Sequence record: NC_073080.1
Direction: 5' to 3' (one strand)
Source: Escherichia phage EC115
DNA: 44,849 bases
The position numbers were made by a program, and so were the translations under genes. Shown here one piece after another: positions 33,132 through 37,560 of this stretch; the first letter of the stretch is position 1, and each line of letters opens with the position of its first letter. The notes beneath the pieces were generated by a model. That model searched no databases. It was not told the origin of the DNA and saw nothing but the letters and a program-made list of their open reading frames with translations.

Positions 33132-33914
33132 TTAACGGCGGCGACGTTTACGTGGCGCTTCGTCTTCGTCGTCGTCCTCATCTTCGTCATCGCGTGGCTT
33201 ACGACGTTTACGAGGTTTCTCGTCTTCGTCATCATCATCGTCATCGCGGCGCTTGGACTTTTTGGACTTGCGCGGCTTGTCGTCTTCGTCATCGTCATCA
33301 CGACGTTTTGACTTTTTGGACTTGCGCGGGCTTTCATCTTCGTCATCGTTGTCCAGGTCTTCGTCTGAGCAAGAAGAACCGCCACCGCCGAAGGCTTCGC
33401 CGTCATCGCGGAAGCGCAGACCCAAAAGACCCGCACCGAGTCCCTTGCCGTTGGTATTGTTCCACGCCCAAATGTCGAGGGACACGTTGCAATAACAACC
33501 GGAGTAGATCTCCTGGCCTTCGATCTCGTCACCTTCTACGGTCAGACCTTGTTCAGTCTGTTTCTCGCCGAGTGACGTTTGAATGTTTGGCTGCTTGAAC
33601 GATTTGGCGTTGATGTACAACATGCCTTCAAATTCTTCGGTTACTTCGTCACGCTCGTCACCGTCGCGGACTGCGCATTCCTTAGAATCCTGGGCGTAGT
33701 GCCGGTCCATCCACTTATCGGCATTCTTCTCGGATTTCAGCTTGTCGGTGAGCACTGCGCGCGCTGCCGCTTCCACTTTGTCCACCAGCGGATCTTCTTT
33801 ATCCAGAAGAATCACTGCACGGTATGCCGGTTTTTGTCCATCCTGTTTAGGGGTATCACGTTCCCAAATTTTCAGGAAACATACGCGCACATTTTTCAGG
33901 TTGACTTTAGCCAT
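33132..33914 (-). CDS. Single-stranded DNA-binding protein (T7 gp2.5 / DUF2815-like) with repetitive charged C-terminal tail
   Basis: N-terminus MAKVNLKNVRVCF... (start at ATG 33914 with GAGGA RBS; track ORF 33935); C-terminal third is three DDDDEDDKPRKSKKSKRR-type repeats. Confidence 0.55.
   Translation of the reverse strand: MAKVNLKNVRVCFLKIWERDTPKQDGQKPAYRAVILLDKEDPLVDKVEAAARAVLTDKLKSEKNADKWMDRHYAQDSKECAVRDGDERDEVTEEFEGMLYINAKSFKQPNIQTSLGEKQTEQGLTVEGDEIEGQEIYSGCYCNVSLDIWAWNNTNGKGLGAGLLGLRFRDDGEAFGGGGSSCSDEDLDNDDEDESPRKSKKSKRRDDDDEDDKPRKSKKSKRRDDDDDDEDEKPRKRRKPRDDEDEDDDEDEAPRKRRRR
33160..33340 (-). repeat. Tandem ~57-60 bp repeats (3 copies) inside SSB gene
   Basis: Repeated cgtcttcgtcatcgtcatc...gactttttggacttgcgcgg units on the plus strand. 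Confidence 0.7.
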
Positions 33915-34004
33915 TTTCCAATTCCTCATTTTCACATGTATCGGGGTTATTATGAGCCACCCCGTTCGGCTTGGTTGCTAATCTACTTGGTTGCGCCTAA
34001 GCGA

Positions 34005-36120: not shown

Positions 36121-36151
36121 TCTAAAAAGAGGCCCGCTAATATGCGGGCCT
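36121..36151 (-). terminator. Intrinsic terminator (leftward)
   Basis: On the minus strand AGGCCCGC-auauua-GCGGGCCU followed by CUUUUUA. Confidence 0.45.
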
Positions 36152-36288
36152 GATAATATTAATCTTCACCGCCGAGTTGTTTATAAACCTCGTCCGGGTC
36201 GTCGCCTCTTTCTTCGCAGAAGGCGGTGAATTCCGCCCAATTTTCTGCTATGAAATCGAGCATGATTCTCATTTCATAGTCCATGATA

Positions 36289-36828
36289 TTAGTCTTCCAG
36301 TTCGAAATAAGTTTCGACGATTTCTTTTAGCTCTGTGTGGAAGTCTTCGACGTCGTCATCTTCCAGCTTGGCGATTGATTTGATCTCGAACGATTCCAGA
36401 AGGTCGTCGAATTCGTCGTTGGCATCGTCGTCGTCACCACCCGCGATAATAGCGGCGTACTGTTTGATCTCGTCGCGCATCTCCGCCAGCGGATCGGCAT
36501 CTTTCTTACCTTTGCCTTTAGCCGGTGCTTTTTTGGTTTTCGCCGGTTTTACGTCATCGGCATCGTCGTCGTCGTCATCTTCTACGACTTCTTTTTTGGC
36601 TTTACCTTTAGACTTGGTTTCTTTTGCCGCGCCTTTTTTCGCTTTTGGCGCATCTTCGACTTCGTCCTGGTCGTCGTCTTCGACTTCAGTCTCCGGCTTG
36701 GCCTTGCCTTTCTTAGCTGTGCCGTTTGCTTTTGGGTCTACGGCAGCGCCAACGGTTTCATAATGCTTAGCGATGGTTTCCAGTGCTACTACGCCGCGAG
36801 TAATCAGGTTTACGATTTGTTCAAACAT
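36289..36828 (-). CDS. Highly charged low-complexity protein (alternating Lys-rich and Asp/Glu-rich blocks)
   Basis: 179 aa; first gene of the leftward operon with GGAG RBS; long poly-acidic runs interleaved with KKGKAK-type basic stretches. Confidence 0.6.
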   Translation of the reverse strand: MFEQIVNLITRGVVALETIAKHYETVGAAVDPKANGTAKKGKAKPETEVEDDDQDEVEDAPKAKKGAAKETKSKGKAKKEVVEDDDDDDADDVKPAKTKKAPAKGKGKKDADPLAEMRDEIKQYAAIIAGGDDDDANDEFDDLLESFEIKSIAKLEDDDVEDFHTELKEIVETYFELED

Positions 36829-37026
36829 GTTTTATATCTCCGATTGGTTAAGTTTAGGTGTCGACCATTAACTTCGTCGGTGGCCTTAACATATTGCCAG
36901 GTTACGCGTTCTCCCGTTCGGGTAGTGGACCTGGTTATATAATCACGGTTGGGAATCCTGACACTTCGATCCGGCCCCTGCGTTGCCCCTCTCCAGTTTG
37001 CGTCCTGCATCCTGTCGACGAGGTGA

Positions 37027-37055
37027 ATATTAGATTGGTTGCATGAGGGAGTCAA
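37027..37055 (-). promoter_or_regulatory. Leftward sigma70-like promoter for the early/replication operon
   Basis: Minus strand TTGACT-N17-TAATAT; overlaps a TTGGTTGCA 9-mer. Confidence 0.5.
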
Positions 37056-37063
37056 CAACTAAT

Positions 37064-37101
37064 TTCAAAAAAAAAGCGCCGAAGCAAAATGCGACGGCGC
37101 T
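37064..37101 (-). terminator. Strong leftward intrinsic terminator (orphan, upstream of the leftward promoter)
   Basis: On the minus strand AGCGCCG-14 nt loop-CGGCGCU followed by nine U (the A9 run on the plus strand). Confidence 0.6.
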
Positions 37102-37125
37102 AACCAATAAGAGACAATGAGACGG
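37067..37125 (-). ncRNA. Candidate small RNA (about 55 nt) ending at the orphan terminator
   Basis: Candidate leftward promoter at about 37131-37158 (TTGAAA-N17-AATAAT on the minus strand) lies about 30 nt upstream of the hairpin; no ORF. Hypothetical. Confidence 0.25.
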
Positions 37126-37170
37126 GAGTATTATTACACGCGTGCGCGCCCGTTTCAATATCCAAAGGAT

Positions 37171-37199: not shown

Positions 37200-37230
37200 C
37201 GTTGGTCATTAACCAACTGAGGGCAGAGCA

Positions 37231-37560
37231 ATGAATGTAAACGACGCAATCGAAATGTTAACGACGACTGTTAGCAGTGAAACAAGCCGGTCATGGGCTT
37301 ATACCGATGCCGTTGGGGCGGTGCTATTTGAGGTCGAGCGCCTGCGCAGTGTAGAAAAAGAATTACGCGCCAGGCTGGAATTGCTCAACGGTACGGCGGC
37401 GAGCAAGCTACAAAAACACAATGAAGAAATGGAAGAATACAAAAAGCAGGTTATCCGTTTGCGCGCCGAGGGCAAATCCTGGGCGATGATTGCCGAGTTG
37501 ACCGGAATTAATCAGAGCACAGTGCGCTCTTGGGTACGCAATAACAAAACTTCTAAGTAA
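37231..37560 (+). CDS. HTH DNA-binding protein (putative regulator)
   Basis: 109 aa; helical N-terminus and C-terminal HTH-like segment (SWAMIAELTGINQSTVRSW). Confidence 0.6.
   Translation: MNVNDAIEMLTTTVSSETSRSWAYTDAVGAVLFEVERLRSVEKELRARLELLNGTAASKLQKHNEEMEEYKKQVIRLRAEGKSWAMIAELTGINQSTVRSWVRNNKTSK

What the first reader, a model, noticed from the sequence alone, without database searches (positions are those of the whole stretch)
36289..36828. First early gene encodes a mixed-charge low-complexity protein (DNA-mimic or histone-like?)
The first gene transcribed from the leftward early promoter encodes a 179 aa protein with long poly-Asp/Glu runs interleaved with Lys-rich blocks and short ordered termini. 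First-expressed, highly acidic phage proteins are often DNA mimics that inhibit restriction enzymes or nucleoid proteins; the basic blocks could alternatively bind DNA directly.
Basis: inference. Interest (0 to 1): 0.5.

Follow-up and report, generated by a model that had tools for sequence, protein, structure and literature searches.

The report
Tethered acidic-domain protein heading phage replication genes
The gene is real and encodes a conserved phage protein (short helix, floppy variable-length charged tether, very acidic three-helix head) that always sits at the head of the DNA replication/recombination genes of a large group of E. coli and Salmonella phages; its function is untested, and the eye-catching Asp/Glu and Lys runs are the least conserved part.

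Summary
Window 36289..36828 (-) is a 179-aa ORF with 52 D/E and 29 K/R, pI 4.4, and blocky charge (z=6.4 against shuffles). The window is a complete Dhillonvirus genome.

The protein has three parts:
- an invariant amphipathic N-terminal helix (aa 1-26);
- a disordered polyampholyte linker of about 86 aa;
- an acidic three-helix bundle (aa 113-175, net -20).

The termini are under strong purifying selection (pN/pS 0.05). The linker that carries the poly-D/E and Lys blocks ranges from 13 to 77 aa among Dhillonvirus homologs by repeat gain and loss, and it loses all acidic blocks in some variants found on contigs of full genome length.

Relatives with 29-37% identity occur in Jerseyvirus, Kagunavirus and other ~40-kb siphoviruses. 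The gene order is always primase-helicase, this gene, PD-(D/E)XK exonuclease, gp2.5-like SSB, DNA polymerase. The SSB carries its own alternating acidic/basic tail.

No Pfam, NCBIfam, PDB or fold relative exists beyond generic helical bundles. Dhillonviruses are reported as comparatively RM-sensitive, so an Ocr-like role is unlikely.

My best reading (about 0.4) is a non-enzymatic tethered adaptor of the replication-recombination module. The main rival is a Gam/gp5.9-like host inhibitor.

In passing I found a covarying ~160-nt leader RNA upstream of the gene that is not in Rfam.

The parts
36289..36828 (-). CDS of the 179-aa protein ('X'), including the stop codon at 36289-36291
   Evidence: ORF listing; phrog_3127 at E=8e-50; 106 homologs; pN/pS 0.05 on the termini
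36751..36828 (-). N-terminal amphipathic helix, aa 1-26 (MFEQIVNLITRGVVALETIAKHYETV), with a heptad-like hydrophobic pattern. R11, A15, E17 and A20 are invariant in the 29-sequence wide-family alignment (only A20 in the 34-sequence one).
   Evidence: Alignments A2, A5 and A6. AF2 predicts a helix at aa 2-23. With a short linker and a diverse alignment its pLDDT falls to about 50, so it is not confidently packed on the C-terminal domain.
36493..36750 (-). Disordered polyampholyte linker, aa 27-112. It alternates Lys/Ala/Pro-rich and Asp/Glu-rich blocks in a degenerate repeat of about 105 nt whose copy number varies between phages.
   Evidence: pLDDT below 50; direct repeat D2 of 67 nt at a spacing of 105 nt; linker 13-77 aa in homologs, made of modular KAKKEVVEDDD..EDEKPAKxKKAPAKGKG units; linker net charge median 0
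36292..36492 (-). C-terminal acidic three-helix bundle, aa 113-179 (net -20 over its 66 residues). This is the most conserved part of the protein. Some relatives carry it in tandem.
36838..36851 (-). Shine-Dalgarno GGAG (36841-36838) preceded by a TTAACCAA box (36851-36844)
   Evidence: Sequence. TTAACCAA occurs only twice in the 44.8-kb window; the other copy is just 5' of the SD of the divergent HTH gene.
36847..37022 (-). Structured leader RNA element of about 160-175 nt between the promoter and the CDS. It is optional among Dhillonviruses.
   Evidence: Indel in alignment A8; copies in unrelated siphoviruses; covariance model hit at 174 bits; 89% of cells paired against 71% in shuffles, and 16 of 31 pairs with compensatory changes; no Rfam match
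37027..37055 (-). Sigma-70-like promoter candidate TTGACT-17-TAATAT for the leftward operon
   Evidence: Consensus scan; nearly invariant, with a few substitutions, in 10 Dhillonvirus intergenic regions. Activity was not tested.
37067..37158 (-). Upstream promoter-like site (37158-37130), then about 55 nt, then a hairpin plus T9 intrinsic-terminator-like site (37101-37067). This is a candidate short transcript. It contains AUUGGUUA, the complement of the UAACCAAU box 5' of the SD of X.
   Evidence: highly conserved in A8, with substitutions in the divergent L014; for the complementarity. Not tested.
36130..36151 (-). Terminator-like hairpin downstream of X and the 41-aa ORF. It may bound a short, strongly expressed unit.
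   Evidence: The Jerseyvirus Ent1 annotation also places a putative terminator right after its homolog gp41.
33135..33365 (-). Related feature in the same operon: the C-terminal tail of the gp2.5-like SSB, with alternating acidic and Arg/Lys blocks (..DDEDES PRKSKKSKRR DDDDEDDK PRKSKKSKRR .. PRKRRRR)
   Evidence: The pattern is conserved, with variable block number, in every complete SSB tail recovered from the related loci.

Best explanation
X is a non-enzymatic, tethered adaptor that belongs to the phage's own replication-recombination module. The proposed mechanism has three parts.

1. The invariant N-terminal amphipathic helix docks on a partner or self-associates.
2. The disordered polyampholyte segment is a flexible tether of adjustable length. 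It carries 0-3 copies of a short acidic-hydrophobic plus basic unit (..KKEVVEDDD..KPAKxKK..), which sets reach and valency.
3. The strongly acidic three-helix head binds a basic, nucleic-acid-binding surface of a module partner. The most plausible partner is the gp2.5-like SSB, through its DNA cleft or the Arg/Lys blocks of its tail. The exonuclease, polymerase or primase-helicase are alternatives.

On this reading X supplies in trans the kind of acidic hub that the C-terminal tail of T7 gp2.5 supplies in cis.

Shown here: the ORF, its composition, the three-part architecture, the conservation pattern, the synteny, and the parallel charge patterning of the SSB tail.

Inferred: the early and abundant expression, the protein-protein mode of action, and the identity of the partner.
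For: 1. Fixed position. The order primase-helicase, X, (small ORFs), DUF2800 exonuclease, Enc34-type gp2.5-like SSB, Pol A holds in every fetched locus that spans it. It holds down to 26-48% identity for the primase-helicase, 45-55% for the exonuclease, 36-50% for the SSB, and 29-37% for X itself. The primase-helicase gene can be in either orientation. The neighbours were identified.

2. Selection. The termini have pN/pS 0.05. The same helix-linker-bundle architecture recurs in about 30 divergent representatives found by an exhaustive profile search, and nowhere else.

3. Linker. It is predicted disordered and varies by repeat copy number, yet its net charge stays near 0. This is tether-like behaviour.

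4. Parallel with the SSB. The only other blocky mixed-charge segment in the genome is the SSB tail in the same operon. This tail style accompanies X in every lineage examined. Acid and basic block counts in the X linker and the SSB tail rise together (Spearman 0.42 and 0.57, n=39).

5. Contrast case. In Enc34 (Casjensviridae) the same module has a positional analog, ORF3 (N-helix, Lys/Thr-rich linker, helical acidic C-terminus), and an SSB tail that is purely acidic. The structural study describes that tail as an interaction element.

6. No catalytic or DNA-binding domain was detected.
Against: - No interaction has been shown or modelled, so the partner is a guess.
- The block-count correlation is confounded by lineage (about five independent groups). 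Total lengths of the X protein and the SSB tail do not correlate (rho -0.14).
- Synteny with replication genes is also what lambda gam and T7 5.9 show, and both are host inhibitors.
- Natural variants with almost no linker (13-22 aa) show that the tether and its repeats are dispensable for at least some genomes.
- Homology to Enc34 ORF3 is not established. hhalign aligns only the 28 N-terminal columns (P=5e-4, probability 30%), and the C-terminal domains do not align.
- A UniProt name for a distant relative, '13.88 kDa late protein' of phage MB78, hints at late rather than early expression. I could not trace its source.
Confidence: 0.4

Rival explanations
1. X is a host-directed inhibitor that acts by DNA mimicry. 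The acidic three-helix head, made early, occupies the DNA-binding site of a host enzyme that threatens linear replicating phage DNA. RecBCD is the most plausible target, as for lambda Gam and T7 gp5.9. A nucleoid or SMC protein is an alternative. The N-helix would dimerise the protein or add a second contact.
For: - The C-terminal domain has net charge -20 over 66 aa here and is acidic in all 34 family members examined (-4 to -21).
- X is the first ORF behind a host-type promoter.
- X lies immediately upstream of the exonuclease and annealase genes. Known RecBCD inhibitors lie next to their phage's exonuclease gene in lambda and T7 (general knowledge; gp5.9 and Gam described).
- Named relatives found in the phage collection infect mainly Enterobacterales, which share RecBCD.
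Against: - No sequence or fold similarity to Gam, gp5.9, Abc2, Ocr or ArdA. The best PDB matches are designed or generic bundles.
- The acidity of the domain falls to -4 in some members.
- The gene is universally present at a fixed position, like a core gene, not patchy like most counter-defence genes.
- Other small acidic ORFs nearby could fill this role. One is the 41-aa ORF at 36159-36284, which has 12 D/E against 3 K/R (my count from the translation).
- Broad anti-restriction is disfavoured, because Dhillonviruses are reported as comparatively sensitive to type I and II RM.
Confidence: 0.27
2. X is a condensate or nucleoid-organising scaffold. The oligomerising N-helix plus the blocky polyampholyte linker drives multivalent electrostatic assembly with the similarly patterned SSB tail and with DNA, concentrating replication proteins in a compartment. 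A weaker version is that the Lys blocks bind DNA directly in a histone H1-like way.
For: - Charge blockiness is 6.4 sd above shuffles.
- Repeat copy number varies, which tunes valency.
- The same patterning occurs in the SSB tail of the same operon and in all related phages, and block counts correlate.
- Some relatives have tandem C-terminal domains.
Against: - Natural variants lack the acidic blocks altogether.
- Net charge of -23 and pI 4.4 argue against direct DNA coating.
- There is no experimental or structural support.
- The correlation is confounded by lineage and lengths do not correlate.
Confidence: 0.12
3. X is a regulator of transcription or of the early-to-late switch. An acidic domain would bind RNA polymerase or a sigma factor (like sigma-70 region 1.1, T4 AsiA or T7 Gp2), or it would act with the structured leader and the terminators of the operon.
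For: - X is the first gene of the operon and is flanked by terminator-like hairpins.
- X sits next to a divergent HTH gene.
- A structured leader RNA precedes it.
- A distant relative is named a 'late protein' in MB78.
Against: - No similarity to any RNA polymerase-binding protein.
- The leader RNA is absent from some Dhillonviruses that keep X, and it occurs in other phages in front of unrelated genes, so the two are not coupled.
- X lacks the arginine-rich motif of lambda N (sequence).
Confidence: 0.08
4. X is a virion-associated or ejected internal protein rather than an intracellular early protein.
For: Only the 'late protein' name of the MB78 relative. Acidic disordered proteins are sometimes packaged.
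Against: X lies in the replication module, far from the structural genes at about 1-24 kb of the window, behind a host-type promoter. None of the papers read lists it as a virion protein.
Confidence: 0.04

Closest known systems
Acidic C-terminal tail of T7 gp2.5 (and of bacterial and phage SSBs generally) as a protein-interaction hub
   Same: Both are strongly acidic, flexibly attached elements encoded in a replication module that contains a gp2.5-type SSB, a Pol A polymerase and a primase-helicase. Both are presumed to bind basic DNA-binding surfaces (gp2.5 and Enc34 tails discussed).
   Different: In X the acidic element is a folded three-helix bundle on a separate polypeptide that has its own N-terminal docking helix. 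The cognate SSB tail in these phages alternates acidic and basic blocks and ends basic (PRKRRRR), not acidic-aromatic. No binding has been shown.
Lambda Gam and T7 gp5.9 (RecBCD-inhibiting DNA mimics)
   Same: Small, helical, acidic proteins made early and encoded beside the phage exonuclease and annealase genes.
   Different: No sequence or fold similarity. X has a long disordered linker. X is a fixed core gene across several phage genera.
Ocr / ArdA anti-restriction DNA mimics
   Same: High density of Asp and Glu, and first-expressed position.
   Different: No homology or fold match. Phages of this genus are reported as comparatively sensitive to type I and II RM.
Nucleophosmin / nucleoplasmin-type acidic-tract scaffolds (architecture only)
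   Same: An oligomerisation element, a disordered region alternating acidic and basic tracts, and a small C-terminal three-helix bundle. Their partners carry Arg-rich motifs, and the SSB tail here carries PRKRRKPR and PRKRRRR.
   Different: These are eukaryotic and unrelated in sequence. The nucleophosmin C-terminal bundle is basic whereas that of X is acidic. This is an analogy from general knowledge and was not tested.
Enc34 ORF3 family (Casjensviridae), the positional analog at the head of the same DUF2800 / Enc34-type SSB / Pol A module
   Same: It holds the same slot, divergent from the regulator and primase genes. It has the same layout of an N-terminal helix with an ..LE.IAAN-like motif, a Lys-rich linker, and a helical acidic C-terminus.
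   Different: Homology is not demonstrated (hhalign probability 30% over the N-helix only; C-terminal domains do not align). The Enc34 linker lacks acidic blocks, and the SSB tail there is purely acidic.
phrog_3127, and the UniProt entry '13.88 kDa late protein' of Salmonella phage MB78
   Same: Same protein family: phrog_3127 matches at E=8e-50 over the full length. The MB78 entry is a distant structural and sequence relative (Foldseek E=1.8e-3, 28% identity).
   Different: Neither carries a function. The 'late' label could not be traced to data.

Membership tests
phrog_3127 / 'X' family (uncharacterised) | Full-length profile match, with the N-terminal helix motif and the C-terminal domain present | tested here: met
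   E=7.9e-50 over residues 1-179 against profile positions 1-178 of 178. R11, A15, E17 and A20 are invariant and the C-terminal domain is conserved in alignment A5.
DNA-mimic proteins (Ocr, ArdA, Gam, gp5.9, Arn and others) | Sequence or fold relationship to a known mimic | tested here: not met
DNA-mimic proteins | Folded surface with a high density of negative charge | tested here: met
   The C-terminal bundle has 25 D/E against 5 K/R in 66 aa, with pLDDT about 90. This is composition only. The geometry of the charges relative to DNA phosphates was not analysed.
DNA-mimic proteins | Binds and inhibits a DNA-binding host protein | not testable with these tools
   This needs pull-downs or inhibition assays.
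Anti-restriction (Ocr-like) function | Carrier phages resist type I RM | tested here: not met
   From the literature only. BASEL reports Dhillonvirus as comparatively sensitive to type I and II RM. The BASEL phage TheodorHerzl carries a homolog.
Histone-like / H1-like (AKP-repeat) DNA-binding proteins | Net basic protein or a recognised DNA-binding fold | tested here: not met
   Net charge -23 and pI 4.4. Only a weak, sub-threshold HC2 hit in one of 34 family members. The Lys/Ala/Pro blocks are variable.
SSB / gp2.5 family | OB-fold core | tested here: not met
   The model is all-helical. The true SSB of the operon is the 267-aa Enc34-type protein.
Red-beta / RecT C-terminal exonuclease-binding domain | Significant similarity to the three-helix C-terminal domain that binds the cognate exonuclease | tested here: inconclusive
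   6m9k_E appears only at Foldseek E=8.7 and probability 0.09. UniRef labels the Enc34 ORF3 analog 'RecT protein' without support. No sequence match was found.
Lambda N-type antiterminators | Arginine-rich RNA-binding motif in a small basic disordered protein that is the first gene behind the early promoter | tested here: not met
   X is acidic and has only 2 Arg. Only the position is shared.

The most novel reading that the evidence does not exclude
X and the SSB of the same operon form a matched pair of blocky polyampholytes. Their multivalent electrostatic co-assembly, with valency set by repeat copy number in each, would build a phase-separated replication-recombination compartment in infected enterobacteria. 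This would be a membrane-less 'viral factory' in small siphoviruses, organised by a dedicated scaffold protein.
Probability: 0.1. Interest if true: 0.8.

Novelty: new variant of a known kind. Interest (0 to 1): 0.42.

Why it matters
Dhillonvirus, Jerseyvirus and Kagunavirus phages are among the E. coli and Salmonella phages most often isolated. They are widely used in phage therapy work and in defence-system research (SECphi18, SECphi4, the BASEL phages).

Their replication module is treated as understood: primase-helicase, exonuclease, gp2.5-like SSB and Pol A. Yet it contains a strictly conserved fifth protein of unknown function at its head.

If X is a trans-acting acidic hub, it changes how the T7-type replisome model transfers to these phages. 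It would also explain the odd SSB tails that end in a basic block. If instead X is a host inhibitor, it would be a new fold of DNA mimic.

In both cases the natural series of linker lengths (13-77 aa) is a ready-made experiment on tether length and valency.

Tried and rejected
- **Known Dhillonvirus proteins from the defence literature.** Ksap1, the KpAvs2 trigger, is a different 74-aa gene. The RAZR trigger is the portal protein. Escape from Retron-Eco8, Borvo and Hachiman maps to the SSB, polymerase and other replication genes, and X is not mentioned.
- **Domain libraries.** Pfam, NCBIfam and PDB sequence searches gave only low-complexity noise such as BUD22, bS20 and designed proteins.
- **N-helix packing on the C-terminal bundle.** This is not supported, because the helix pLDDT falls to about 50 in the short-linker model.
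- **EF-hand reading of the GGDDDDANDEF loop.** Rejected by eye, because the spacing does not fit the 1-3-5-12 ligand pattern.
- **Homology of X to Enc34 ORF3.** Inconclusive.
- **Co-variation of X length with SSB tail length.** None (rho -0.14). Block counts correlate, but the correlation is confounded by lineage.
- **Annotation 'DNA recombination nuclease inhibitor (gamma)' in some records.** It belongs to the neighbouring 109-aa HTH gene, not to X, and looks spurious.
- **The 142-aa ORF on the opposite strand (36335..36763 +).** It is the mirror image of the GAC/GAA/AAG-rich frame, and I did not consider it further.
- **'13.88 kDa late protein'.** The name traces to a UniProt entry of phage MB78. 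I could not find the primary data.
- **Whether retron Ec48 senses Dhillonviruses.** The text I could retrieve does not say.

Full report
**Identity of the window.** The 4-kb region around the finding is 91-95% identical to many Dhillonvirus genomes, including JL1, SSL-2009a, welsh and PTXU06. The window is the size of a complete genome, with structural genes on the + strand at about 1-24 kb and a long minus-strand block at about 24-37 kb.

**The observation.**
- The ORF at 36289..36828 (-) exists as described and encodes 179 aa.
- It has 29 D, 23 E, 27 K and 2 R, net charge -23 and pI 4.4. Its charges are far more segregated than in shuffles of the same composition (z=6.4; 0 of 2000 shuffles reach it).
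- It matches phrog_3127 (unknown function) end to end at E=8e-50. It matches nothing in Pfam or NCBIfam.
- The N- and C-terminal 100 codons show pN/pS of 0.05 against 15 other Dhillonviruses. It is a real, constrained gene.

**Anatomy.** AlphaFold2 with a 100-sequence alignment gives three parts:
- a helix at aa 2-23, with pLDDT about 79;
- no structure across aa 24-112, with pLDDT mostly below 50;
- a three-helix bundle at aa 113-175, with pLDDT about 90.

A natural short-linker homolog modelled with a more diverse alignment gives the same elements. There the N-helix confidence falls to about 50, so the helix is probably not packed on the bundle and needs a partner or self-association. The helix has hydrophobic residues at heptad-like spacing (F2, I5/V6, I9, V13, L16, I19/A20, Y23; read from the sequence).

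Among 100 Dhillonvirus-type homologs the termini are 93-100% identical. The central region ranges from 13 to 77 aa through gain and loss of units of the form KAKKEVVEDDD..EDEKPAKxKKAPAKGKG. At DNA level this is a degenerate repeat of about 105 nt. Variants such as P0080 and P0097, from contigs of about 44 kb, and P0089 have no acidic block at all. The poly-Asp/Glu and Lys runs are therefore the dispensable part. Across 34 diverse family members the linker net charge has a median of 0, and the C-terminal domain is always acidic (-4 to -21, median -14).

**Wider family.** A profile of the C-terminal domain was searched against 1.84 billion representative proteins. It found 37 proteins, almost all of 90-210 aa with the domain at the C-terminus. 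They share:
- the N-terminal helix (consensus MLEKFLALLERFVVAHELIAAN; R11, A15, E17 and A20 invariant in the 29-sequence alignment);
- a charged linker;
- the bundle.

Three of them carry two tandem bundles (P0108, P0112, P0113).

In annotated phages these relatives belong to Jerseyvirus, Kagunavirus, phiEap-2, Edwardsiella phage eiAU and others. Some annotators call them '13.88 kDa late protein'. That name comes from a UniProt entry of Salmonella phage MB78, and I could not find the underlying data.

**Context.**
- In the window the operon downstream of X encodes, in order: ORFs of 41, 83 and 62 aa; a DUF2800 PD-(D/E)XK exonuclease; a gp2.5-like (Enc34-type) SSB/annealase; Pol A; an endonuclease VII-like protein; an SNF2-type helicase; methyltransferases; and an HNH protein.
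- A 109-aa HTH protein and the primase-helicase are transcribed divergently.
- In every fetched locus that spans the region the order is primase-helicase, X, (small ORFs), exonuclease, SSB, polymerase. This holds even where the neighbours share only 26-66% identity. It holds whether the primase-helicase is divergent (Dhillonvirus-like) or co-directional (Jerseyvirus, Kagunavirus).
- X is thus a core, position-fixed member of the replication-recombination module. It is not a variable accessory gene.

**A parallel in the same operon.**
- The SSB ends in its own blocky mixed-charge tail..DDEDES PRKSKKSKRR DDDDEDDK PRKSKKSKRR DDDDDDEDEK PRKRRKPR DDEDEDDDEDEA PRKRRRR.
- A genome-wide scan finds only three charge-dense mixed segments: a coiled-coil scaffold-like stretch, this SSB tail, and the X linker.
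- Every complete SSB tail recovered from the related loci alternates acidic and Arg/Lys blocks. Jerseyvirus has one unit and Dhillonvirus has three or four.
- Block counts in the X linker and the SSB tail correlate (rho 0.42 and 0.57, n=39). This largely reflects a handful of lineages, and total lengths do not correlate.
- Enc34 (Casjensviridae) has the same module with a positional analog, ORF3 (N-helix, Lys/Thr linker, helical acidic C-terminus), and a purely acidic SSB tail. Homology of ORF3 to X is unproven.

**What it is not.**
- With pI 4.4 it is not histone-like.
- BASEL reports Dhillonviruses as comparatively sensitive to type I and II restriction systems. This argues against an Ocr-like role.
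- The Dhillonvirus proteins known from defence studies (Ksap1, the portal, the SSB, the polymerase) are other genes.

**Interpretation.**
- I favour, at about 0.4, a tethered adaptor of the module. It would have a docking or oligomerising N-helix, an adjustable polyampholyte tether, and an acidic head that engages a basic surface of a partner. The SSB is the best candidate. This would be a trans version of the acidic-tail hub of T7 gp2.5 (tail roles summarised).
- The main rival, at about 0.27, is a Gam/gp5.9-like host inhibitor. Acidity, promoter-proximal position and adjacency to the exonuclease gene all fit it.
- A condensate-scaffold reading (about 0.12), a transcription role (about 0.08) and a virion protein (about 0.04) follow.
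- None can be decided without interaction data.

**Regulatory surroundings.**
- The 400-nt divergent region is more conserved (96%) than the flanking genes.
- On the minus strand it holds, in order:
  - a promoter-like site at 37158-37130;
  - about 55 nt ending in a hairpin plus T9 at 37101-37067, a candidate short RNA;
  - a second promoter-like site, TTGACT-17-TAATAT, at 37055-37027;
  - a leader of about 190 nt.
- Most of that leader is a discrete element of about 160 nt. It is absent from some Dhillonviruses.
- The element is present, in the sense orientation and in intergenic gaps right after a -10-like box, in unrelated siphoviruses. These are Changchunvirus PHB17, Warwickvirus JK16, Murrayvirus Lumpael, Serratia phage MQ-4 and nine IMG/VR contigs.
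- Anchored duplex folding and a covariance-model alignment of 26 distinct copies show 89% of cells paired, against 71% in shuffles. Sixteen of 31 pairs have compensatory double changes. The covariation score is 0.417, against at most 0.10 for slid controls.
- The element has no Rfam 15 match. It has no copy in 5,426 complete E. coli genomes.
- It is not coupled to X, because the gene downstream of it differs between lineages.

**Verdict.** The finding is a conserved hypothetical protein whose context makes it more interesting than a generic 'acidic early protein', but its function remains inferential.

Noticed in passing
window 36847-37022 (-); also L049 1475-1648, L050 1488-1661, L051 1473-1646, L052 1488-1660, L053-L061: A structured RNA element of about 160-175 nt forms most of the 5' leader of X. 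It starts 6-10 nt after a -10-like box and ends 15-40 nt before an SD and ATG. It has four covarying helices and long invariant unpaired blocks (GGAGAGGRGCRACGC; GATCGWAGTRTCWGGATTCCYAACCGTGA; AGAACGC; GGCYACCGACGARG). It occurs in Dhillonvirus, Drexlerviridae, Murrayvirus and other siphoviruses in front of different genes, and some Dhillonviruses lack it. It has no Rfam 15 match and no copy in complete E. coli genomes. It is a candidate new promoter-proximal cis-acting RNA (antitermination, stability or ligand sensing are untested possibilities)..
   Followed up: partly
window 33135-33365 (-), C-terminal tail of the gp2.5-like SSB (CDS 33132-33935): The SSB tail alternates acidic runs with PRKSKKSKRR or PRKRRKPR blocks and ends in PRKRRRR, not in the acidic-aromatic end typical of T7-type SSBs. 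The number of units varies between phages (1 to 4). The pattern holds in every complete tail from related loci. Enc34, whose SSB structure is solved, has a purely acidic tail.
   Followed up: partly
window 37067-37158 (-): A promoter-like site (TTGAAA-17-AATAAT with a TG) is followed after about 55 nt by a strong hairpin plus T9. The stretch is highly conserved among Dhillonviruses, with a few substitutions in the divergent L014. It is a candidate small RNA just upstream of the main leftward promoter. Rfam gave only sub-threshold noise.
   Followed up: partly
window 36844-36851 (-) and 37209-37216 (+); complement at about 37100-37107: TTAACCAA occurs only twice in the whole genome. Each copy lies a few nt 5' of the Shine-Dalgarno of one of the two divergent first genes (X and the 109-aa HTH gene). 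The candidate short transcript carries AUUGGUUA, which could pair with 8-9 nt of the box in the X leader. This could be an sRNA target or a protein operator.
   Followed up: no
window 36159-36284 (-): A 41-aa, strongly acidic ORF (MDYEMRIMLDFIAENWAEFTAFCEERGDDPDEVYKQLGGED; phrog_15754) lies directly after X and before a terminator-like hairpin (36151-36130). It is present in only some Dhillonviruses. It is an alternative candidate for a small gp5.9-like inhibitor.
   Followed up: no
linkers of distant homologs in L024-L029 and L037-L046 (for example L046 6001-6531): Many non-Dhillonvirus relatives share a short linear motif in the otherwise variable linker: (P)VEGE[DS][VI][IV]DTKPA, followed by an acidic run and then EEKPKRKPR. 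The Dhillonvirus repeat KKEVVEDDD..KPAKxKK may be a degenerate, multiplied copy of it.
   Followed up: no
window 37231-37560 (+): The 109-aa HTH protein (HTH_23 / sigma-70 region 4-like) divergent from X is annotated in public records as transposase, resolvase or 'DNA recombination nuclease inhibitor gamma'. It is more likely the regulator of the divergent promoter region.
   Followed up: no
public records of homologs (for example P0003, P0005, P0019, P0082, P0087): Several database entries for this gene are 207-239 aa long, against the usual 140-180 aa. I suspect the start codon was called upstream inside the leader RNA region, where a 2-nt indel before the ATG changes the upstream frame between phages. 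I did not verify this.
   Followed up: no
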